This document shows, in pieces, positions 19,305-60,560 of a stretch of 64,000 nucleotides of DNA. The notes beneath the pieces are model-generated. The model was not told the DNA's origin and searched no databases. It saw nothing but the letters and a program-made list of their open reading frames with translations. Numbering within the stretch: the first letter of the stretch is position 1; each line of letters opens with the position of its first letter. The stretch is from the human T2T-CHM13v2.0 reference genome, Homo sapiens. The stretch is from assembly GCF_009914755.1 (NCBI RefSeq), contig NC_060934.1. One strand, given 5' to 3'. The translations under genes and the position numbers were made by a program.

Positions 19305-19510
19305 GTGTTGGTGGAAATAACCCAGATGAAGAAAAGAATAGCACAGCCAATTCTGGGGTCTCCTCTACAGACATCCTGAGCTTCGGGTACCAGGGAAGTT
19401 TGTTGTCACACACACAAGACCAGGACAGAAATACTGAAGAACTAGACATGGCTGGGGTGCAGAGCTTAGTGCCCAGGCTGAGACATCAGCTTTCCTTTCT
19501 GCCGTTAAAG
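19305..19510 (+). CDS. FRMPD2B: FRMPD2B exon (PDZ1-PDZ2 linker; [18 protein letters not shown]), phase 1 to 0
   Basis: Acceptor ttgtttttatag|G, donor AAG|gtaatc; open frame; 206 nt. Confidence 0.93.
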
Positions 19511-21124: not shown

Positions 21125-22161
21125 CAAGGATCTGGCATGCAATAGGGCTCCATGAATGACAGTGCCTTCCTAATTGGCCATGGTGCTCACCTGGACAGAA
21201 CATCCCATGAGGAACTGGATGCAGGAGGCCAGTGGAAGAACAACGATAGTAGCTGCCATTAATTGAGTGCTTACCTGTGTGCCAGGCAGTGTCCTGAGCA
21301 CTTTATATGTATTAGCTCATGGAAGCTCCATGGTAACCCAATGAGATCATTCCTATTATCAACCCCTTTTATGGGTGGGGTACCTGAGACAGAAAGAGCA
21401 AAGGAGCACACCCAAGCTCTCTCAGGGAGCAGGGGACAGAGCTGGGATTCAGATTGGCCTCCAGAGCAGAAACCTTCACCCCAGGCCTTCCTCTGGTAGG
21501 TCCTCTCTGGCAGGAAGCAGAGCAGAGAGGCCTTCATGCTGGGGCTTCTTTGGTGGCAAACCTGAGAGTTGGTTTCCTGGGGCTGGGGGCCGTTGAGGGG
21601 AGCAAGGGAGCTCTAAGGCCACGTTGACCATGGTGCAGGCTGTAGGACGCAACCCAGATGCTGCAGGCTCTTCTGGGTCTCTTGGCCAACTTTGTGGCCA
21701 GATGATCCTCTGTGGTATGGTGGACTTTAGATTCTCACTTCAGGTCTCAACCTCAGCAGTTGAGGCTTCGTTGTTCAGCTTCCTCCAGCTTGTTTATTTT
21801 CCTGCGTGTCGTTAGAATTTTCTAACATTCATGGTGATTAGAAAGCACTAAGTAAAGGGGGCAGATAGGACAAAAGACCCCATCTTCTAGGCAGAGGGAC
21901 AGCGGAACATGAACAGTGACCCAAGCATTCTCTGCCTAGAAGTGGCATCAGCCCAGCCCATCACTCCCTCATCTTCCTCCTGCTTTGTCTGAGGTCACAT
22001 GCAGAAGGCCTGATAAAGCTGGAAATGAATCCCCTGCTGGCCCAGTCCAAAACTCATGATCTTTCTGAGGTGCAATGCTGCCTGCTCCTGAGAGCAGTAT
22101 GAGCCAAGAGGTGACATCTTCCTTCATCCCATCTTTATTTTTGTTTGTTTGTTTATGGCAG

Positions 22162-22266
22162 GGTGCTGGTTCTTCTTGTCCTCCATCACCTCCAGAAATC
22201 AGTGCTGGTGAAATCTACTTTGTGGAACTGGTTAAAGAAGATGGGACACTTGGATTCAGCGTAACT
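22162..22266 (+). CDS. FRMPD2B: FRMPD2B exon, start of PDZ2 ([35 protein letters not shown]), phase 0 to 0
   Basis: Acceptor gtttatggcag|G, donor ACT|gtaaga; 105 nt; TLGF carboxylate-binding loop. Confidence 0.95.
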
Positions 22267-23250: not shown

Positions 23251-24379
23251 TCAGGAATGTCATTGTTGGATTTAACTGTTGATGGGAAATAGAATGGCAT
23301 CTCCCACCAAAGTAAGGACACTCTATGGCTGATGAAAATTTTCAGAGGAAATTCAAGAGATATGTGAATGGAGGGCATTCTTTGCTTTCCCCTGTGATAA
23401 TGCTATGTACCTAGAGCAAGGATATGTGTTTTCTTGGACCCTAAGCCTGCAATGAATTTGTCATCAGTAGATGATTTTAAGGGACCAAGTAAGAAACCAA
23501 GCAATAAGGCTCATGAATCCACATGGAGTGAACAGGCTGATACCAAATATGGTCCATTTATTCTTGGCTTGGGGTAACAGCCTTATCAGACACCAAACAT
23601 AGCTATTTTTCATCTGAAAAACTGACTAAATTTTGGGTTATTCACAAATATATATTTGCTGAGAAGAGTTTGATGATTTCCTTTGGCTGGCAAAAACTTG
23701 GATTTTCTTTGCAGATATTTAATTTCAAAAATAATTCTTGAAATGTCTCACTCAAATCCAAATGGCCATTAAACACATGAAAAACACTCAAACCCGTGAA
23801 AAGCCACAGGAATACAAATTAAATTAAAATAAAATTTTAAACTTTATGTCTACCAGCTTGGCCAAATACAGCTGGTGGAACGTAGAAAAATGGTACTGTC
23901 ATACAAAGCTGGTAGAAATGTGAATAAGTATATCCATATTCACATAGGGATGCAATCTGGCAACATCTATTATAATGAAAAATGCACATATCCTTTGGCC
24001 CATCAAAGCACACAAGACGTGCCAGGCACAAGCCTTCAGGCCCACAGCCATATCCACCTACGCTGGTCACTACCTATATAGAGATAGTGGTGCATCCCAC
24101 GTGAGCAGTTGCTGAGCACCCGCCTTGTACCAGTGCTTGGGCTGGGGACATGCCCAGATCTCTCACATAGTTGCTATTGTTAAGCTTATGAACACCTAAT
24201 CTTATTGCTCAGTGGAGAATACAATCTAAACAAACAGGTGAATACAGAAGACAGTGCCAGTCGGAGGTAAGGTCATGGGATAGAGTGGTGGGCAGGTGGG
24301 GATTCCCTTAGCTGGGGAGGTTGGGGAGGCTTCCTGGAGGAGGAAAGATGGGTGGTGAGTTTTTTGTTGTGTTTTTCAG

Positions 24380-24473
24380 GGTGGCGTTAACACCAGTGTG
24401 CCATATGGTGGTATCTATGTGAAATCCATTGTTCCTGGAGGACCAGCTGCCAAGGAAGGGCAGATCCTACAGG
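24380..24473 (+). CDS. FRMPD2B: FRMPD2B exon, PDZ2 middle ([32 protein letters not shown]), phase 0 to 1
   Basis: Acceptor gtgtttttcag|G, donor CAGG|gtgaga; 94 nt. Confidence 0.95.
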
Positions 24474-24997
24474 GTGAGAGATGGGGATGGGTCCTCATTG
24501 GGAACTCTGTGCTCCATGGTGTAAAGAGCCCTGCACTGGGAGGGGCAGCCTCTAGGCCTTGCCCTGCTCCCATTCTGAAAACTCATGCAAATGATTGCCT
24601 CCCCAGGTCATACTTTTCTCACCTGGAAAGGAGGTGATAGAATCTGCCCTGCCCATTTGATAGGTTGGGGGGTCTGCAGTGGCACACTGGGAAGCATAGG
24701 TGATAGAAAAATAGTAGAAGACTTAAAAGACTTGTGTTGCTCTTTGGCCTCCATGGGAAAACATACTGCTTCCCTTGGAGGACAAGTGGGCCTCGGTAAA
24801 CTCACTCGCACATCCGGGGAGGACACCTGAGCCTTCTGTTTGCCCTTGCTCAGCTCCCACTTCTCTGATGGAAGGGGGTGATTTTTATTGGTCTCCAAAA
24901 CTGCCAGAATTGAGCCAAAAGGGGAACCTAGGATCTTACTTATCTCCATTTCCCCTAGAATTCTGGTGTCCCCAGCGTCAACCATGCCTCCCTGACC

Positions 24998-36959: not shown

Positions 36960-37303
36960 ACACCTGAACTCTCAGCTGACAAAGAATTCACCAGGGCAAC
37001 ATGTACTGACTCATGTACCAGCCCCATCCTGGATCAAGAGGACAGCTGGAGGGACAGTGCCTCCCCAGATGCAGGGGAAGGCCTGGGTCTCAGGCCAGAG
37101 TCTTCCCAAAAGGCCATCAGAGAGGCACAATGGGGCCAAAACAGAGAGAGACCTTGGGCCAGTTCCTTGACACATTCTCCTGAGTCCCACCCTCATTTAT
37201 GCAAACTTCACCAAGAAAGGGATGAATCAACATTGGCGACCTCTTTGGAAAAGGATGTGAGGCAAAACTGCTATTCAGTTTGTGATATCATGAGACTTGG
37301 AAG
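36960..37303 (+). CDS. FRMPD2B: FRMPD2B exon ([22 protein letters not shown]), phase 0 to 2
   Basis: Acceptor tttcttttaatag|A, donor AAG|gtaaga; 344 nt; translated by hand, no stop (missing from the ORF track for lack of an early start codon). Confidence 0.94.
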
Positions 37304-43257: not shown

Positions 43258-43306
43258 ATATTCCTTCTCATCTCCTCTAACCAGACTTTCGACAGATATT
43301 TTCTGA
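43258..43306 (+). CDS. FRMPD2B: FRMPD2B terminal coding exon (R-YSFSSPLTRLSTDIF*)
   Basis: Strong acceptor ctttgtgcttttctcttag|A; phase 2 completes AGA; TGA at 43304-43306. Confidence 0.92.
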
Positions 43307-43838
43307 GCACCTTCTCTGCATGTCTGCAGTGCTGTGTAAAATGCCCTACCTTTGCATGGACTATTCTTTCTAATCAAGAGGCGTGTGTGGCGAACTTGGG
43401 GCAGCCCCTGGAAGTCTTGTTCTTTGACCATTACGTCTGCGGCTGCATCACCAGATAATGAGCTTCACCACTTGTCTGCCTCCTGTGTCCTTCCGCGGGG
43501 AGTAAATGTCACTTCAGCTTGCCGCATCTCTAAATAGGCAAATTTTCAGTGCTCAGAAAAGGACCTGATCTTTGCACAAAGTGCTTTGATGGTTGCCTGC
43601 TTGAGTCACTCCCAATCCCTTCCTGAAGCCCTTTCTTTATAATTCTTCTGTTGAAATAGCCATCATATTCACAGTACTAATCACAGCATCTCACATTTAC
43701 TAAAAACTTACCCCATACCAGGAACCCAGAGTTGGGGGGGCTGTGTCAGAATTATGTAATTTACGTGTCCCAATAATCCTAGATGCTTCTTGACCATCTA
43801 GTTTTGTCAAATGAGAAAACTGAGGTTCCAAAGAAGTC

Positions 43839-44050
43839 AATAAACTTGTCCAAAGTCTGACCGACTCTGCTTGCCATGTGACGAGTCTGTCTTAGAACTG
43901 GGTCATTGCCCTGCTTGCAATGCTGTGCCCTCTGGCAAGCCCCCCCACCCCCCTGGTCTCCTGAGCTCGGTAAGGTGCTCCAGCTGCCTCTACCATAGCA
44001 CTTCCTACATGGACTGTAACATTTCTTTACTGCTCCAACTTCTCATTAAA
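43839..44050 (+). terminator. Candidate poly(A) signals of FRMPD2B: AATAAA 43839-43844 (in a MIR-like remnant) and ATTAAA 44045-44050
   Basis: Hexamers seen 530 and 740 nt after the stop codon; usage not demonstrable from sequence. Confidence 0.5.
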
Positions 44051-44253
44051 TTGGGGGCTCCTCAAAGCCAGGGTTGGTGCCTTATAAGTTTCTTGCTTCC
44101 TGGTGCCCAGAGCAGCCTCTGGCATGAGCTGTTTGAACACTGGCTGAGTCTCACGGGCCTGTGTCGTGCAGAGTATTCTAAAAGGCAAGGGGAAGGTGGG
44201 GTGAGGAATTTTTTTTATCAAGGCTGGAAGAAACATGGGCTTCTGTATTCTAG

Positions 44254-44535
44254 TCCTGAATTGGATGGGGAGGATGGGGAAGGTGACATGTACCATCCAT
44301 GTGGAGCCCCTTCTCCCACCTCGGAGGATGAAGAGTATCTTACCATCAACTCTACATGCCAAGGCCAGCTACCCTGTGAAGAATGTTTGGAGGCAGATTC
44401 TGGGACCATTCCCTTGCCACAGTTCTGCTCTTGGGGCACTGTCCCAGAGTCTTTGCCTCCAGAAGAGTCCCCAGAGAGTGGGAGTGAATGGGAAGACCTG
44501 GAGGAGCCTGTGGCCCTGGAATACGGTGCCCTCAG
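44254..44535 (+). CDS. Candidate alternative/ancestral FRMPD2 coding exon (S-PELDGEDGEGD..ESGSEWEDLEEPVALEYGALR), phase 2 to 2
   Basis: Acceptor ttctgtattctag|T, donor CAG|gtgggt; 282 nt; in phase with the donor at 37303; protein-like acidic sequence inside the longest ORF of the window. Confidence 0.65.
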
Positions 44536-46728
44536 GTGGGTGTCACTCTGGCTGGGTGAACTGGGGCTGAGCTCTGACCAGAGCAGGGCTCAGTGCTATC
44601 AAGCCACTTCAACTGGGGGTGGGGGATGGTCTGTGGGCATTGCCCAGTTTCCCCTGCATCTTCTTTGGGGGTCATGCATCATTGTAATGGCCATTTTCAC
44701 AGAACACTTACCATGGCCCTTGCACCATGACAACGACCTACAACATGGGGACTGTCATCACCCCCATTTCACACATGACACATTTGGGGCTTTCCCAAGG
44801 TTATCCAATAAGTAAGTGACAGAACTAGAATTCAAACCTGATCGGTTCCCCACTCCACGGCCCACCTGTCGAGCACCCATCTGTTCTGCCTCCTATGTAC
44901 AGGAGTGTGCATCCCTCTCCTCAGGTCTCTCTCTTTTGGGGGTCTGAATGTCTAGTGCTGATTCCTGTTTTGCCTGCTCCTACCTGCCCCTCTGCTGGAT
45001 GTACTGCAGAGAAGAGTCTTGGTGTCCTGTCATAGGGCCCATCTTGTTGGACTGCTGTGGCTGAGTATAGACCAGCATCAGGAAAGTCTCACTGTTAATG
45101 CAAGGAGCCACCAGAAGCTGACCTGGTCACCAGGCAGGGTCAGAACATATTGATGAGGACACAGAAAAAGTAAGGGCAACAGAAACTGTCACACTGGGAA
45201 GAAGGGAGGTTAAATTCTGGGCAGGTCTGTAACCACTCAACATTCTGTTAAAGTACTTACAGTGTATATTTAAAAATGCTGAATGTTCCAAAAACTTTCA
45301 CATAAACACAGTTTCAAGGTCCACTGAAACTTAACGAGACAACAGTTTGAGAAGTTTCAAGTATAATTGAAACCCACTCCTTAACTTTCCTCCTATTGTG
45401 TCCCAGCTCCATTTTCCTGGCTGTACATAAGGAAGCTCAGCCACCACAAATGATTGAGCTGGAGCCTCAGAGGACAGTGGTGGGCCAGCTGATAAGGAGA
45501 GTGGATATTTGAAATTAAAATATAACAAAAGGGCTGGTTCTTATCTGAAATAGGAAGCAACAAGTTAATAGAGTGGAAGATTCAGAGGCTTTGAAGACTG
45601 TGCATGTTCATTTATGGGGAAGTACAACACTTTACAGCATTGGGAGTGTACGTTATGGATTCACAGAAATGTGGGCAAGCAGGAAGCAGCTTGTATGCAG
45701 GGGGCAGTCTTCTTGGAGCTGGCTCCGCAGGGCTGGGAAACAGAAAGAAGAAGGCTGAGCAATTGGTGGGGACCACAAGGGCCAGTCCACTGAGATCTGC
45801 AGTGCGTCTGAGCCAGCCGGGAAGAGAAAGGCAGAAGATGTGGCATTGTGGTTGGGGGAGCTCAGATTTGAAGCCTGGCCCTGCCACTCACTGGCTGGGA
45901 GACCTGCAGCACATGACTTTTAAACCATTCAATATGCAGCTGACTGCCAGATAACCAAACCCACTTCATGCGGTTATGACAACGCCAGGTGTGTAGTGGT
46001 AAGCGCTTAAAAAACATTAGCTATTTTTATCATCAATCACAAAGGAGAGAATTACTCCAGTGAGAAGATATAAGCTTTTTAATGCATTCAATCCTGTTGG
46101 GTTTTTTCCATGTAGTCAAAGAAACTAGACAGTTGGACTTGTGCCCTAACATGTGGTATGGGTCTGGGTGGGGAGAAGCACTCACCTATGGCAAGGGTGC
46201 CAGGCTCTACCATGCCCTCATCTATATATGGACTGTAGCATGGGCTGTGCTCAGGGTGAGTCCTGTTAGAATCACTGATCCTGCACAAAAAGGAGAACAG
46301 GTCTCACCCTCCCCTGCAGACAGAGGATGGGTGTGCCAACATGAGTGCCCAAGGCATGAGTTCTTAGTTTGGCTCCATGCAGCAGCCCACAGGTGTTCTT
46401 CATGGCATCTATGGGCTATTGCACCTAGAATGTTGACTTGTGTGCTTCTTTTGGGAAATACAGGTCTTAACAGCCTTTAAATTCTCCAAAGTGTCTATAA
46501 CCCCTATAAGCTGAACCCCCTCCACTGTATATATTATCTCATTTATAAAGAGGACTTTGCCTACAGAGCAGTGTAGCCTTTAAACCTAATCACCAATTAT
46601 TTCATTTGGTCCTTTTAGACATTAAGACAGTCATAGTGCGTCTTAAGGTAGTTTCTACATGTGATTTAACTTAATCCTTATGTCAGTTTTGAGTGATATT
46701 CTTATTTCTGTTTTTAAAGGGGGCTTAG

Positions 46729-48344: not shown

Positions 48345-50239
48345 CAGAGAAAGACTGGTAGGAAACAGGCTCTCGTTTTATCAGATCTGCAGAGGAATGA
48401 TCACTCTTCCAGCTTACTGCAGTAGACCAAAAGTATAACAACAGAAAACCTACAAAGCTGACAATATTGAAAAAGTTTAAACTTCCATACAATAATAATG
48501 ACAAAACTCATGTAAAAAGAATAGCAATGGGTTGGGAAAGCATTTACATAATTGTGAACAAAGATTAATATTTTTAATATTTAGAAAGCCCATTTTAATT
48601 TATAATAGATCAATACAGGATTTCCATAGACAAAATATACGATAAAATACAAATGGCCAACAAACACACAAAATATTCTAACCAAAACAATGTCAATATA
48701 CTGATTTGCATTCATTACATTCATAAAATTTAAAAAAACTGTCCAATGCTGGCAAAATTTTGCTGAAGCTGGCATATTCAGAAATATCAAAAGCTATAAA
48801 AATGGGTATACCCACTCACCCAACAATGAAATCCCTGAGAATTATCCCACAGAAATAATCCAGAATAAGAAAAAAATCAATTTATTTAAAAATGTTCACT
48901 GTAGTGCTCTTGATAAAAACAACAAATTGGAATTGGCTGAAATGCATTAGAATAATGATAACATTAGAGAAAATGATGGTACAATAGCATAATAGAATAC
49001 TGCACTGCCAAGAAAGTAATATAACTACGAAGAACTCGCAACTTAGTAAAGTGTTTGATATAATAACTCAGAATTACATGCTGGTTACAACTATGGAATG
49101 CCTCGCAGGCACAAGGAGAAGCACCGTGAACAGAGGGGAGGCTCAGCAATGGAACAGAAATTGACCAAAGTTTGGGTGATGGGATTAGGAGAATACACTT
49201 TATTTTGTTAAAAATTACCTTTATATATCTATTACTTATATAATAAATTTTACATTGAAAATAAAGAGACTGAAACTGCAAAATAAGAGAAGGAAAGCAA
49301 CAATAACCAACCAAACAAAAACAAAGACTAAGATTAAAAAAGCCTGTGCTCTAAAATCTAATTCATGAACTCTCCTCTATGTTCTTTTGTTTCTAATTTT
49401 TCTGTTCTCCTTATGACAGAAAAATCTTATGGGTCATTTGGCTTCTTCTGCTATTAATGAAAAAGATGTTTCCAGGGATCTGAACAGCCTTGTTCTAAAT
49501 TCTCTCAGAGCTGAGGCCAGCTCCCCTGGTGCATCATTACAGTTTCACAGGCCTCAAGGTTAGGGAACTAATCAAGTATGCAATGAAGTGATTAAATAAC
49601 AGTATTTACAATTTAGGAACTGCTCACATTCTGCTGAACATTGGTTGCTTATTTCCTCTTTGGAAAAGAAATTGGTGGATACAGGCTCAAAATACATCTG
49701 GTCCTCCTCCTTGTAGGAAAGGACCACCCTTGACTCCCAGGCTGCTATACTCATTTTGAGCCATATATCAGGAAGAACATGTTAATTTGTCTTAGGTGGA
49801 CTCAATTGCAGCTACCACTTGCTTTGTTTCAGGGCAAATGTCAGAAAGAACAGCTAATTCCTAGGAGACTCAGCTCAGCGCCTGCACACTGCTTCCATTG
49901 TTGGCTGCTACATGCTACAAACCTGGCTGTGCTTGAGGATCAACTATAGCAGGTGTTCAAAATACAGATTCACTGGCCTCATCCCGGAGATTCTGAATCA
50001 GTAGGGCTGAGATGAAGCCCAGAAATCTGTACTTTTACCAAGCTCAGCAGATGGTTGTTTCTGTGGCCAGATTTAAGGACAACTGATCCAAACTCTTCAA
50101 GACTTCACTTGGCCTTCCCATCCTTCCTCCCTGCCATAAATATTTATGAAGCTCCTATTATGTGCCAGCACACCGTTGTTACGAGGTTGCTAAAGCATAT
50201 ACATATTCAGCACTAAATTGTAGTGCAAAAGTGGGCTTC

Positions 50240-54981: not shown

Positions 54982-56244
54982 CACCCATGAGGGTTTATAA
55001 AAAATTGAGGCCAGGAGTAGAAAATTCCTCTGAAAAGAGTTGTTGGAATGCTATGACATTTCCCCTTCCATACCTCTTTCCCCTCCTTGTGGAGGGGAGA
55101 GGAATGAGGTACCTCTCCTTTCCCTCCAGCCACATGAGAAAGACTGCTCAAATCATATACAGGGTTTGACATGTGTCTTCTGAAAGGGCTTGGTGTCTGG
55201 AACATCCCTGAGCAATCTCATGGTGAGAGGTGATGACGGCAACAACATGTCTGGCGGGAGAGCAAAGAGAAAGAGGATGGCGCTAGGAGTGAACCGCCAA
55301 TCCCCGTGTCAGGGCAAGGGCGCGGATGCCCTTTTTATGTAGGCAAGTAAGCTGCAGGCAGGTCATAGCCTGTAAAACAAGCAGGGGTGATGTTGACCCC
55401 AGCAGAGAGAGAGCCAGAGCCTCAGCTCACACAGAGCATGCATTAGGGGGAATCACAAAAAGGCATCCACCTGTAGCTTATGAATTACACAAAGGTGGCC
55501 CTTCCTTTCCTGTGCAGCCCATTATTGGGGCACAAAACCATGCCTACAACTCAGCCTCCACTTACTCATTTGTCTGGTACCTTTATTCATGGCACAAATT
55601 ACATAAACAGATTGGTAGCCCTGGATGGGCCAAGGAATGGTCTTGTAAGTAGCTGGGCAGAGGCAACATCACTGGGCATGGGTTTGTACTCAGAGATCTT
55701 CTGCAGGGGAATTCCTGAGAAAACACAAGATTGTCTCACAGAAGAAATGGCCAGCTCAAAATATCTGCTGAGCCCAGGGGGCCCATTGCTGAAGGACTCC
55801 AGCTGTAGAGGTGTCAGACACCCACTGAGTCTGGAGGGCCTGGGTGTGAAGCTGGGTGAGAAAGGAGAAATTGATGGTACCCATTTCTCAGGCTGAAGGT
55901 GAAGAGAGCCTAACAATTAGATAAGTCAGAGGGAATCTTAAACTGAAATGGGAATATTCTGGGTGTTCAAAGTTATAAACCAGCCCAAGATTTCATCTGC
56001 ACGGGCCCAGGGGAAAAAAGCATCTGGGCATTGAGTTCAAATGGCATTGGAAAGAAATTTGCACTCTGTTAGGTCCAGCTAATGAGATGCAGTTCAATGA
56101 AGACATCTGTATTCTTGCTGTAAAGCACAGGGCTTGGCGCAGACCAAGGAATGACTCATAAGGATTAAAAGGCATGAAACCAGGTTCTTTCTTAGAATTT
56201 GGCAGTCTTTGCACTTCACTTTCTGCCACATCATTATTTTACAG

Positions 56245-56430
56245 TTAGTACGTAGAGCTGGAAGTGGAGGGCAGGACATTTATGTTCAAGGGTTTGTGGC
56301 AGGCTCTCCTGCCAGCTGAGCAGCTCTCTCCTGTCGAAGTCTATGGATTCTCTCTCCTTGTGGTGTGTGCACGCAGAGCCATGGGCTGGCTGAAGCTGCA
56401 AATGGATGAGCAGCCAACAAATTGATCAAT
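56245..56430 (+). pseudogene. Decayed PDZ-domain exon
   Basis: After ttattttacag| it reads LVRRAGSGGQDIYVQGFVAGSPAS*AALSCRSLWILSPCGVCTQSHGLAEAANG*AANKLIN, colinear without gaps with PDZ2 of this window; two in-frame TGA. Confidence 0.6.
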
Positions 56431-57169
56431 CTATTAATATTTATTGGGCATCTGCCGTGTGTCAGGCTCAGGGACCAGGCAGCCGGGGATTCACAACAAG
56501 ATAAATGTATGTCCTTGTGCTCTTTAAATAGTTTTCTACCTCCACTGGGATTTTTACTGGCATTGAAATCTCCACAGTTTATTTTTATAGAGTCTTTTAT
56601 GTGAAGTGTCTCAAAGCAGGGCAGAGAGAAACAGACAGAGAGGCCCCCACGGCTTCTTCCAAGCTCATGGTCCTCATCAACTCACACTTAACAGGGCTGG
56701 GTGTGAAGCATACCATTCCCAAATGAACCAGGCTGCAAAGCACAGGCCTGAAGCAGGCGGTCCTGTGAAGGGTAATGTCAATGAAGTGATTATTTTTTTC
56801 TGTCAGTATTGTTCTTAGTTATCTTCTGTTCCTGGGCTCCAAGCCTGAATTAGAAAACTCTGAACTCGAGCATAGGCCTTGGGATCTCTCCTGAGGTCCT
56901 GAGTTCCAGCTATCCACTGGGGTCCTCCTGACTGTATCTGGGGACCCATGGCTTGGAGGAGGGTATGTTTGGCAGTAAGTTCTTATACTTGTAAGGAGTA
57001 GATGAGCCCTACCTCAGCAGAGAGCAGACATTGGCACGGCCCTCAAGGTCCATCTCAGAGGGCGTCTGGGTATCCGGATCAAGGCCAAGGACTGCAAAGA
57101 CAAAAATTCCAAACCCAGCATTACCTCCCTGTGCTGGCCAATTCTGCTCCTCCAGCTGAGCCTTCCCAG

Positions 57170-59959: not shown

Positions 59960-60560
59960 GGGAGAGGGGGACGCGCACAGGGTGGTGCACAGGGCCCGCA
60001 GGGAATTTACAGCGGCGTCCGCGGCGATGGGCTCTCAGTGCCTTGGAAGACCGGTAGAGGCAGGTTCTGTCTCTCCCGGCCTGGCAAGCAGAGGGCCGCG
60101 GCGCAGGGCAGAGTGCCGCGGCGCAGGGCAAAGCTCCAGTGCGCAGGCTCGCGGGCGCAGGTGGGATTGGATAGCGACGAAGGCCGGCAGGCTAGGCGTG
60201 GACCCAACTGGCGAGGCTGCTGGGGTTGCAGCGGGACAGTTGGGGCGGCCCCGCAGGCCCAGGTGAGGAAAGGTGGCTGGGGGCCAGGTGGGCAGGGGGC
60301 GTGCGGGAGGCCGCTGCGCCGGGCTGTGGGAGGGCGGGCGTGAAGAAGGAAGATGCCGTTGACGTGCAGGGGTCACAAGGCGTGGGTTGTGGCCCTGGCC
60401 CGGGAGACTGCCCGGGTGGGCCTGAGCTGTGAAGTAGTGTCGCTGCAGCCAGAGGGCAGGACGTGATTCTGGCCGTGTGATGCCAGCTGCACTGTGACGC
60501 GTGTTGGGGCGCCTATGCGAGACGGGACCGGGACAGGAACCCTGTGGCTCTGTGGTAGGG
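59960..60560. promoter_or_regulatory. PTPN20: CpG island promoter (PTPN20)
   Basis: The only CpG-dense non-Alu stretch in the window; GC-box-like motifs, inverted CCAAT (gattgg ~60165), duplicated gccgcggcgcagggca; about 17 kb downstream of FRMPD2B, where PTPN20 lies by my recall of the locus. Confidence 0.85.
60170..60262 (+). other. PTPN20: PTPN20 non-coding first exon (5' end approximate)
   Basis: Within the CpG island, ends at consensus donor CAG|gtgagg; gene identity from synteny, since PTP exons are outside the window. Confidence 0.65.

What the first reader, a model, noticed from the sequence alone, without database searches (positions are those of the whole stretch)
44254..44535. Intact, in-phase 282-nt acidic exon just past the FRMPD2B poly(A) site: an unannotated alternative C-terminus
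The donor at 37303 leaves AG (phase 2). Joining to 44254 gives AG|T = Ser and continues PELDGEDGEGDMYHPCGAPSPTSEDEEYLTINSTCQGQLPCEECLEADSGTIPLPQFCSWGTVPESLPPEESPESGSEWEDLEEPVALEYGALR with no stop, ending at a good donor CAG|gtgggt, also phase 2. It lies in the only >300-codon ORF of the window, and the acidic, S/P-rich composition with EEYL (possible Tyr phosphosite) and EWEDL motifs is confined to the splice boundaries. Having a donor marks it as an internal exon of a once longer gene. If the donor is ignored the frame runs to TAA at 44813-44815. The short RYSF..TDIF exon may be the newer terminus.
Basis: partly seen in the sequence, partly recalled or inferred. Interest (0 to 1): 0.8.

Follow-up and report, generated by a model that had tools for sequence, protein, structure and literature searches.

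The report
Old FRMPD2–PTPN20 linker exon, unannotated here
The 282-base acidic exon just past the FRMPD2B poly(A) site is a real, very old coding exon that once linked FRMPD2 to the neighbouring phosphatase gene PTPN20; other mammals' gene models include it, so it is a gap in the human annotation and not a new kind of thing.

Summary
Window 44254-44535 has an acceptor (ctag|T), a strong donor (CAG|gtgggt) and an open frame in phase with the donor at 37303. It sits in the only long ORF of the window.

It is not a chance ORF. The 93-residue peptide occurs in predicted FRMPD2 proteins of at least seven placental orders. Two rodent PTPN20 models start with it.

A profile search found the same segment between the third and fourth PDZ domains of single-chain KIND-FERM-5xPDZ-phosphatase proteins of newts, with relatives in caecilians, a paddlefish and a catshark. 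The motifs DEEYLTI and SEWEDLEE are kept from shark to human.

In human, a probable fourth-PDZ relic with two stop codons lies at 56244-56544, and no fifth PDZ was found. The exon's donor is in frame with a PTPN20 coding exon 51 kb downstream.

So the exon is the surviving linker exon of an ancestral PTPN13-like FRMPD2/PTPN20 gene, copied along with FRMPD2B. A 2012 RT-PCR paper already linked the two genes. Whether the FRMPD2B copy is spliced in humans could not be tested here. Interest is moderate to low.

The parts
36960..37303 (+). FRMPD2B coding exon before the choice point. It ends ...CDIMRLG plus AG (phase 2 donor AG|gtaaga).
   Evidence: Hub annotation.. tblastn of gorilla and macaque FRMPD2 gives 99% and 93% identity.
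43258..44070 (+). Canonical terminal exon. It codes R-YSFSSPLTRLSTDIF, with the stop TGA at 44304-minus-1000, that is 43304-43306, followed by the 3' UTR. ATTAAA lies at 44045-44050, about 20 nt before the annotated end.
   Evidence: Hub annotation. The tail is 100% identical to the gorilla FRMPD2 tail. The 16-residue tail is conserved in 45 of 96 FRMPD2-type proteins.
44254..44535 (+). The acidic exon, 282 nt. It enters in phase 2 (AG|T = Ser) and leaves in phase 2 (CTC AG|). Acceptor ctag|, donor CAG|gtgggt. Conserved motifs: DEEYLTINST, LPCEECLEADSGTIPLPQFCSWG, SEWEDLEE.
   Evidence: Identical in the paralogous copy at C10:49005034-49005312.
44925..44955 (+). Start of a possible small downstream exon after acceptor ctcctcag|. 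Joined to the acidic exon it reads R-SLSFGGLNV-stop.
   Evidence: The tail of an Aotus FRMPD2 model (P0005) matches 11 of 11 residues.
45407..45519 (+). Possible alternative terminal exon after acceptor ttgtgtcccag|. It reads S-SIFLAVHKEAQPPQMIELEPQRTVVGQLIRRVDI-stop (TGA 45510-45512), with ATTAAA at 45514-45519.
   Evidence: The tail of macaque model P0037 matches 33 of 34 residues.
49796..49952 (+). Exon seen in hamster PTPN20 and macaque FRMPD2 models, with acceptors at 49796 and 49833. In human both readings run into a stop: TAG at 49947-49949, or R-ANVRKNS-TAA from 49833.
   Evidence: Hamster P0036 LQVPLALCQGKYEKEWYSP against human LQLPLALFQGKCQKEQLIP, 12 of 19 identical, E 0.14. Macaque tails RANVRKNS (P0039, P0041). 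Sequence.
56244..56544 (+). Probable relic of the fourth PDZ domain of the ancestral long gene. It begins after an acceptor-like ttttacag| and is broken by TGA at 56317-56319 and 56407-56409.
   Evidence: tblastn with PDZ4 of P0120, P0122 and P0117 gives E 0.012, 0.006 and 0.088, colinear with the other exons. It scores 31.2 bits against a best of 22.7 bits for the reversed query. Pfam does not recognise it. Sequence.
60189..60262 (+). PTPN20 first exon (its own G+C-rich promoter exon). It has no acceptor, so a read-through from the acidic exon must skip it.
   Evidence: Hub annotation; sequence.

Best explanation
Window 44254-44535 is the FRMPD2B-side copy of an ancient, conserved coding exon of the FRMPD2/PTPN20 locus.

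In the vertebrate ancestor this locus was one PTPN13-like gene: KIND, FERM, five PDZ domains and a tyrosine phosphatase domain. The exon encoded the acidic, disordered start of the linker between PDZ3 and PDZ4.

In placentals the gene came apart. PDZ4 decayed and PDZ5 is not detectable in human. PTPN20 has its own promoter. FRMPD2 usually ends at a proximal terminal exon (R-YSF...STDIF, poly(A) at 44070).

The acidic exon survives as a distal alternative. When the proximal terminal exon and its ATTAAA site are skipped, the 37303 donor splices to 44254. The message then either ends in one of several small downstream exons, giving a protein about 80 residues longer with an acidic tail, or runs on into PTPN20 exons. 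The human donor at 44535 is in frame with the PTPN20 coding exon at G000:C10:47835327-47835440, the same join as in a squirrel PTPN20 model.

The peptide has no fold of its own. It most likely works through short linear motifs (DEEYLTI, SEWEDLEE and, in placentals, LPCxxCLEADSxTIPLPQFCSWG) that bind partner proteins.

What is shown: the exon's anatomy, its phase, its conservation, its place in long proteins, and the broken PDZ4.

What is inferred: that the human copies, and FRMPD2B's in particular, are spliced this way, and what the motifs do.
For: Anatomy and phase.

Homologues: 36 proteins at E<=0.01 among 99 candidates. 27 are named FRMPD2-type, 2 are named PTPN20 (Callospermophilus P0011, Cricetulus P0036) and 7 are unnamed. 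Identity to human is 98% in macaque, 84-90% in New World monkeys and 57-73% in rodents, carnivores, moles, ruminants, camel and elephant.

In the FRMPD2 models the peptide follows the upstream exon directly. Its identity to human is close to that of the upstream exon: squirrel 68 against 75%, cat 70 against 72%, polar bear 68 against 63%, elephant 63 against 59%.

33 of the 96 proteins that hold the upstream exon continue into it. In a 16-sequence alignment, 19 of 93 columns are invariant.

A profile search of 1.84 billion representatives gave 19 hits at E<=0.001. They include P0120 (2255 aa, segment at 1338-1415), which Pfam reads as KIND, FERM, 5 PDZ and Y_phosphatase and a source names FRMPD2 of Pleurodeles waltl. 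Relatives with FERM, PDZ and phosphatase domains occur in Lissotriton, two caecilians, Polyodon and Scyliorhinus.

A PDZ4 relic with 2 stops lies at 56244-56544.

Phase-compatible join: the PTPN20 exon ...ttttctag|T GGC AGT GAT... takes AG|T, and the squirrel model reads ...DDGGL-S-ESDHNVW.

Published RT-PCR from HEK293 cDNA, from the second-to-last FRMPD2 exon to the second PTPN20 coding exon, gave products that 'identified the missing exons' (PMC3335823, passages read).

AlphaFold2 on the alignment gives mean pLDDT 62.6 and pTM 0.16, with two 5-6 residue helices only.
Against: I have no human transcript, junction or peptide evidence for this particular exon.

The gene models of other species are mostly automatic predictions. 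Several come from the same species, so the counts are not independent.

None of the 36 hits is named as human. RefSeq gives FRMPD2B a single transcript that ends at 44070 (hub table).

The two human copies are identical over the exon, but the flanks differ at only 16 of 3482 positions. About 1.3 differences would be expected in 282 nt, so this says nothing about constraint.

Joined to the first two PTPN20 coding exons, the frame closes at once (S-K-R-L-stop and R-F-L-K-I-K-L-I-Q-R-R-stop, read). Only a join that skips them is in frame.

The PDZ4 relic is weak: 31 bits, and Pfam finds nothing.
Confidence: 0.78

Rival explanations
1. A relic that is silent in human. The exon is a true ancestral coding exon still used in other mammals, but in human, or at least in the FRMPD2B copy, it is no longer spliced. 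It looks intact only because the duplication is young and primate sequence has changed little.
For: RefSeq shows one FRMPD2B transcript, ending at 44070 (hub table). No hit is named as human. The proximal terminal exon has the stronger acceptor (ctttgtgcttttctcttag|) and comes first. FRMPD2B is described in print as encoding 320 aa (bioRxiv 10.1101/2024.09.26.615256, passages read). [quoted passage not shown]
Against: Human and macaque differ at only 2 of 93 residues, and both splice sites are kept in both human copies. That is fewer changes than unconstrained sequence would be expected to collect since the human-macaque split (inference; no macaque DNA was available here). RT-PCR products joining FRMPD2 to PTPN20 were reported from human HEK293 cells (PMC3335823).
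Confidence: 0.2
2. A chance open frame with chance splice-like sites in the sequence past the 3' UTR. It would not be an exon in any species, and the database matches would be artefacts of ORF calling.
For: Seven of the 36 hits are unnamed ORF-type translations that also include flanking intron, for example P0002 and P0007. The 323-codon ORF runs well beyond the exon on both sides.
Against: 27 named multi-exon FRMPD2-type models splice it at the same boundary. Conservation reaches amphibians and fishes inside 1600-2260-residue proteins. 0 of 300 simulated windows reach 323 codons.
Confidence: 0.01
3. Mainly a 5' coding exon of PTPN20, not a 3' exon of FRMPD2. Transcription would start just upstream of 44254 and the exon would supply the N-terminus of a longer PTPN20 isoform.
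For: The squirrel PTPN20 model P0011 (450 aa) begins MSFTASYVLLRH-PELDRDDEE..., that is, in the sequence just upstream of the exon, and runs into the phosphatase domain. The hamster PTPN20 model P0036 begins inside the exon. The human join to the exon at C10:47835327 is in frame.
Against: Only 2 of the 29 named hits are PTPN20 models, against 27 FRMPD2-type models. The hub table lists no PTPN20 exon of any of its 96 RefSeq transcripts upstream of 60189. I did not run a promoter scan.
Confidence: 0.1

Closest known systems
The distal C-terminal coding exon of FRMPD2 'isoform X1'-type models in other mammals (for example Macaca fascicularis P0003 1390 aa, Cebus imitator P0004, Ictidomys P0008, Felis catus P0015, Elephas maximus P0022)
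   Same: It has the same upstream exon, the same phase-2 join (G|S|PEL...), the same length (92-93 residues) and the same motifs. Identity to the human window is 57-98%.
   Different: In this window it lies beside the 5'-truncated duplicate FRMPD2B, which RefSeq classes as a transcribed pseudogene, and it is not part of any listed transcript (hub table).
Long single-gene FRMPD2/PTPN20 of non-mammals (KIND-FERM-5 PDZ-phosphatase), proposed as the PTPN13 paralogue by van Eekelen et al. 2012 (PMC3335823) and taken up in a 2023 review (PMC9900141)
   Same: The homologous acidic segment follows the ...RxNCYSVCD exon and precedes PDZ4 in newt P0120 and P0123, and in caecilian P0124 and P0125. The DEEYLTISSTS and SEWED(L/M)EE motifs are shared.
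   Different: The human interval between the exon and the PTPN20 coding exons holds only a broken PDZ4-like stretch and no detectable PDZ5. A human read-through therefore cannot encode the five PDZ domains that the papers state (passages read). The placental core LPCxxCLEADSxTIPLPQFCSWG differs from the non-placental ...STIIPTPQPR....
PTPN13 (PTP-BL/FAP-1), the paralogous KIND-FERM-5 PDZ-phosphatase
   Same: Overall architecture, and a long linker after PDZ3 (architecture as stated in PMC3335823).
   Different: tblastn with the shark, paddlefish and newt segments against 40 kb of human chromosome 4, from the PDZ3 exon to the first phosphatase exons, hit the PDZ and phosphatase exons but nothing for the acidic segment at E<=1. 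The human peptide has only two strong genomic matches, both on chromosome 10.
Alternative last exon choice (a proximal terminal exon with its poly(A) site against distal exons)
   Same: One donor (37303) faces a proximal terminal exon (43258-44070, ATTAAA) and a distal exon 184 nt past its poly(A) site (hub table). Models of both kinds exist in the same species, for example Aotus, Cebus and Felis.
   Different: The distal exon is not terminal: it has a donor. Its downstream partners differ between species' models (tails).

Membership tests
Orthologue of the distal FRMPD2 coding exon annotated in other mammals | Sequence homology of the encoded peptide over its full length | tested here: met
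   36 hits at E 2.9e-54 to 8.8e-5; 57-100% identity, mostly 90-100% coverage; alignment A2.
Orthologue of the distal FRMPD2 coding exon annotated in other mammals | Same position and reading phase after the ...[12 protein letters not shown] exon | tested here: met
   In P0003 the upstream exon ends at residue 1295, S is residue 1296 and the peptide starts at 1297. 33 of 96 proteins show the same layout.
Orthologue of the distal FRMPD2 coding exon annotated in other mammals | Intact acceptor, donor and open frame in the human copy | tested here: met
   ctag|T and CAG|gtgggt, with no stop. Both human copies are identical over the exon. No splice-site scoring program was available, so strength was judged by eye against the consensus (recalled).
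Orthologue of the distal FRMPD2 coding exon annotated in other mammals | Inclusion in human transcripts | not testable with these tools
   No RNA-seq or EST resource was available.
Linker exon of the ancestral PTPN13-like FRMPD2/PTPN20 gene | The homologous segment lies between PDZ3 and PDZ4 of a single protein that also carries the phosphatase domain | tested here: met
   P0120: segment at 1338-1415, five PDZ stretches, Y_phosphatase at 2003-2231, FERM and KIND. Named FRMPD2 of Pleurodeles waltl; five further long proteins.
Linker exon of the ancestral PTPN13-like FRMPD2/PTPN20 gene | The human locus still encodes PDZ4 and PDZ5 downstream of the exon | tested here: not met
   No PDZ in the 125 plus-strand ORFs of 40 aa or more between 43002 and 63685, while 2 of 7 control ORFs over known exons scored. 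tblastn over 118 kb found only a PDZ4-like stretch with 2 stops and nothing for PDZ5.
Linker exon of the ancestral PTPN13-like FRMPD2/PTPN20 gene | The donor phase is compatible with a PTPN20 coding exon | tested here: met
   The exon at extended coordinate 95327 (C10:47835327) takes a phase-2 donor. The two coding exons before it do not. The squirrel model P0011 uses this join.
Any Pfam domain or solved structure | A match to a curated family or a PDB chain | tested here: not met
   Pfam: 0 families at E<=10. PDB profile search: 0 at E<=10. AlphaFold2 pTM 0.16.
LC3-interacting-region type motif (recalled consensus: acidic residues, then W/F/Y-x-x-L/I/V) | Core aromatic-x-x-aliphatic preceded by acidic or Ser residues, in a disordered region | tested here: inconclusive
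   DEE-Y-LT-I and SE-W-ED-L fit the recalled pattern and are conserved from shark to human, in a region with no predicted fold. The pattern is short and common, and no binding test was run.

The most novel reading that the evidence does not exclude
FRMPD2B has its own internal promoter and sits directly upstream of the protein-coding PTPN20 copy, and the acidic exon's donor is in frame with a PTPN20 coding exon. Humans may therefore make a chimeric protein that other apes lack: PDZ2-PDZ3, the acidic linker and the PTPN20 phosphatase domain, a short PTPN13-like phosphatase. Alternatively they may make a longer FRMPD2B isoform that carries the shark-to-human DEEYLTI and SEWEDLEE motifs. Either would change how the proposed dominant-negative action of FRMPD2B is read.
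Probability: 0.15. Interest if true: 0.6.

Novelty: already known. Interest (0 to 1): 0.35.

Why it matters
FRMPD2B is under study as a human-specific gene that may alter synapse signalling. It is modelled as a 320-residue protein ending in ...STDIF (bioRxiv 10.1101/2024.09.26.615256). A conserved distal exon 184 nt past its poly(A) site means the set of possible products is wider: a longer acidic C-terminus, or read-through into PTPN20.

The result also qualifies a statement repeated in the phosphatase literature, that the 'elongated' human PTPN20 encodes five PDZ domains (PMC3335823, PMC9900141). The human interval holds only a broken PDZ4-like stretch.

Two short motifs conserved from catshark to human, in a segment with no predicted fold, are concrete candidates for partner-binding sites. 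No function has been assigned to them in the papers I could search.

For the scan itself, the finding is a gap in the human annotation. It is not a new biological entity.

Tried and rejected
- The first DNA alignment of the two paralogous loci failed. One search was over the length limit, and one search used the wrong strand of L002 and is meaningless. It was replaced by blastn.
- The own genome cannot be searched with an alignment. The single peptide was used instead: two strong matches only, plus four weak ones at E 0.9-4.1 that I set aside as chance.
- Pfam on the peptide and on the PDZ4 relic found nothing.
- The PDB profile search found nothing.
- The ESM Atlas query with P0122 residues 1290-1400 gave no usable hit.
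- The structure prediction gave no fold, so no fold search was run.
- A homologous acidic segment in human PTPN13 was not found. This is a weak negative.
- Whether catshark P0127 and paddlefish P0126 are orthologues of PTPN13 or of FRMPD2/PTPN20 stays open. Against the human genome, P0127's phosphatase domain is 53% identical to the chromosome 4 gene and 47% to the chromosome 10 gene. One of its PDZ domains is 62% against chromosome 10 and 57% against chromosome 4 (run with a stricter first look).
- The exon behind the models that end in R-stop right after the acidic exon was not identified in human.
- The idea that zero differences between the two human copies shows constraint was rejected, because only about 1.3 differences are expected.

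Full report
**Observation**

- The FRMPD2B exon 36960-37303 ends ...CTT GGA AG|gtaaga.
- 184 nt past the annotated transcript end (44070) there is an acceptor, ...ttctgtattctag|T, at 44254.
- An open frame of 93 full codons follows, then a donor, CTC AG|gtgggt, at 44535.
- AG|T gives Ser, and the peptide continues PELDGEDGEG...EEPVALEYGAL. If the donor is ignored, the frame runs to TAA at 44813-44815.
- The surrounding stop-to-stop ORF (43844-44815, 323 codons) is the only one of 220 codons or more in the window. None of 300 simulated 64-kb sequences with the same dinucleotide content reached that length; the maximum was 262. Local G+C is 0.53 against 0.433 for the window, so that control is somewhat generous to the ORF.
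- The stretch is not among the masked repeats in the hub table.

**Copies in the genome**

The 482 bases around the exon, and the peptide itself, each have two strong matches in the assembly: this one, and one on the minus strand at chromosome 10, about 49.005 Mb. The gene order in the window and the papers on this duplication suggest the second is the FRMPD2 parent side, though I saw no annotation for it. Over 3482 aligned bases the two copies differ at 16 positions, none inside the exon; the nearest are 43993 and 44542. Only about 1.3 differences would be expected in 282 bases, so this says nothing about selection. It does show that both copies keep identical splice sites and frame.

**What the peptide matches**

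A word-seeded search of 5.8 billion proteins, set to longer lengths, returned 36 proteins at E<=0.01 among 99 candidates.
- 27 are named FRMPD2 or FRMPD2-like. They come from primates, rodents, carnivores, moles, ruminants, camels and an elephant.
- 2 are named PTPN20, from a ground squirrel and the Chinese hamster.
- 7 are unnamed.

In the FRMPD2 models the peptide follows the homologue of exon 36960-37303 directly.

Identity to human is 98% in macaque, 84-90% in New World monkeys and 57-73% elsewhere. That is close to the identity of the accepted upstream exon in the same proteins. In a 16-sequence alignment, 19 of 93 columns are invariant: C..CLEADS, IPLPQF and WEDL.E.

A second search, with the upstream exon as query, gave 93 proteins. 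Together with the earlier hits, 96 proteins hold that exon. After it:
- 33 go on into the acidic exon;
- 45 go into the 16-residue R[FY]S...STDIF tail;
- 4 read RLSTDIF;
- 4 read STYH;
- 4 read a lone R;
- 2 read RANVRKNS;
- 4 read something else, one of which uses only the second half of the acidic exon.

These are database clusters, often several isoforms per species, and most are automatic predictions. The counts show that both endings are widespread in placentals. They do not give frequencies of use. That ending is at least as old as the placental radiation.

**Deep ancestry**

A profile of the 16-sequence alignment, scored against 1.84 billion cluster representatives, gave 19 hits at E<=0.001. 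Three are long proteins.
- P0120 has 2255 residues, with the segment at 1338-1415. Pfam reads it as KIND, FERM, five PDZ stretches and a tyrosine phosphatase domain. A source names it FRMPD2 of the newt Pleurodeles waltl.
- P0122 has 1672 residues, with FERM and five PDZ stretches.
- P0117 has 937 residues and four PDZ stretches.

Searching with the newt segment found five further long proteins with FERM, PDZ and phosphatase domains: another newt, two caecilians, a paddlefish and a catshark. The last two are named PTPN13 by their source.

In all of them the segment follows the ...R.NCYS.CD... end of the upstream exon. All share two blocks with human: P(V/I)DEEYLTISSTS (human EDEEYLTINSTC) and SDSEWED(L/M)EE (human SGSEWEDLEE). 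The placental core LPCxxCLEADSxTIPLPQFCSWG is replaced in the others by ...STIIPTPQPR....

Whether the two fish proteins are orthologues of PTPN13 or of FRMPD2/PTPN20 is open. I found no counterpart of the segment in the matching 40-kb interval of human PTPN13 (a weak negative).

**What lies downstream in human**

I joined the window to 54 kb of following genome and searched it with the other species' proteins.
- Small exons seen in other species' models map to 44925 (R-SLSFGGLNV-stop, Aotus), 45407-45512 (S-SIFLAV...VDI-stop, followed by ATTAAA; macaque) and 49796/49833-49952 (hamster and macaque). In human both readings of the last one close on a stop.
- At 56244-56544 all three long non-placental proteins align their fourth PDZ domain to a plus-strand stretch that begins after an acceptor-like ttttacag| and holds two TGA codons. 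The score is modest: 31 bits, against at most 22.7 bits for the reversed query. Pfam does not see it. It is, however, colinear with the other exons.
- No fifth PDZ was found, and none of the 125 plus-strand ORFs of 40 residues or more between 43002 and 63685 scored as PDZ. Two of 7 control ORFs over known FRMPD2B exons did.
- The PTPN20 coding exons lie at extended coordinates 89388, 92684, 95327, 113766 and 116743. Joined to the first two, the frame from the acidic exon closes within 4 and 11 codons. The third (...ttttctag|T GGC AGT GAT...) takes a phase-2 donor, so AG|T continues in frame into the phosphatase domain. The squirrel PTPN20 model uses this join (...DDGGL-S-ESDHNVW...).

**Literature**

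van Eekelen et al. 2012 (PMC3335823; passages read) noted an frmpd2-like gene 5' of ptpn20 in all species they examined. They obtained RT-PCR products from zebrafish embryos and human HEK293 cells, using a forward primer in the second-to-last FRMPD2 exon and a reverse primer in the second PTPN20 coding exon. They reported that sequencing 'identified the missing exons', and concluded that there is one PTPN13-like gene with five PDZ domains.

A 2023 review repeats the five-PDZ statement for human (PMC9900141, passages). My scan of the human interval does not support five PDZ domains in a human product.

FRMPD2B is described as having an intact ORF and an internal promoter (PMC6169893, passages). 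It is also described as encoding 320 residues that may act against full-length FRMPD2 (bioRxiv 10.1101/2024.09.26.615256, passages; see also PMC13081824). None of the passages I read mentions the distal exon. Two full-text searches ('FRMPD2' with 'PTPN20'; 'PTPN20', 'FERM', 'PDZ' and 'paralog') turned up no other paper on the link.

**How it most likely works**

Shown: one donor (37303) faces a proximal terminal exon with a strong pyrimidine tract and an ATTAAA signal, and, 184 nt past that poly(A) site, a distal internal exon with good splice sites.

Inferred: when cleavage at the proximal site loses to splicing, the acidic exon is included. The message then ends in a small downstream exon, or continues into PTPN20.

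The peptide has no predicted fold (mean pLDDT 62.6, pTM 0.16) and no match in Pfam or the PDB. It is acidic and rich in Ser and Pro, and its conservation is concentrated in short blocks. That is the signature of a disordered linker carrying short binding motifs. Both deep motifs fit the recalled pattern of LC3-interacting regions (acidic residues, then an aromatic, two residues, then an aliphatic). These are guesses and were not tested.

**Verdict**

The exon is a genuine, ancient coding exon: the start of the PDZ3-PDZ4 linker of an ancestral PTPN13-like gene. It now serves as an alternative distal exon of FRMPD2 and as the bridge to PTPN20, and it was duplicated along with FRMPD2B.

It is already present in many species' gene models, and the FRMPD2-PTPN20 link was published in 2012, so I rate it as already known. 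The parts that add something are these:
- the exon's depth of conservation and its two motifs;
- the broken PDZ4 in human;
- the in-frame path from FRMPD2B to the coding PTPN20 copy.

Use of the exon in human transcripts remains untested here.

Noticed in passing
window 19352-19510, 22159-22266, 24311-24481: LOC100420617 ('FRMPD2 pseudogene', no exons given) is not a processed copy. Macaque and gorilla FRMPD2 place two further upstream exons here at 94-100% identity, and a third at 67% with one stop in the match. All are colinear with the FRMPD2B exons, so the duplicated piece of FRMPD2 reaches back to at least 19.3 kb.
   Followed up: partly
window 56244-56544 (+): A probable decayed fourth PDZ domain of the ancestral long gene. 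It has an acceptor-like site and two in-frame TGA codons, and Pfam does not see it. No fifth PDZ was found up to the PTPN20 coding exons. This does not fit the published statement that the elongated human PTPN20 encodes five PDZ domains.
   Followed up: partly
window 43844-44253 and 44536-44815: The open frame runs 410 nt upstream and 280 nt downstream of the exon, far more than the exon needs. One macaque model (P0037, 'PDZ domain-containing protein 5C') uses about 44111-44194 of the same frame as an exon (SSLWHELFEHWLSLTGL...), together with only the last third of the acidic exon. Whether this is more than chance plus high G+C is unexplained.
   Followed up: no
window 44925-44955, 45407-45519, 49796-49952: Several small candidate exons downstream of the acidic exon match the C-terminal tails of Aotus, macaque and hamster models. 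45407-45512 ends in a stop followed at once by ATTAAA.
   Followed up: partly
window 44536-44550: Intron-retention-type models from several orders all read R-W/L-V-S/A-L after the exon. The first ~15 intron bases after the donor therefore seem conserved across placentals.
   Followed up: no
extended coordinates 89388-89486, 92684-92781, 95327-95440 (G000:C10:47829388-47835440): Of the three N-terminal PTPN20 coding exons, only the third accepts a phase-2 donor. The exon before it (92684-92781) ends AG|gt in the same phase as the acidic exon, so the two are interchangeable upstream partners for it.
   Followed up: partly
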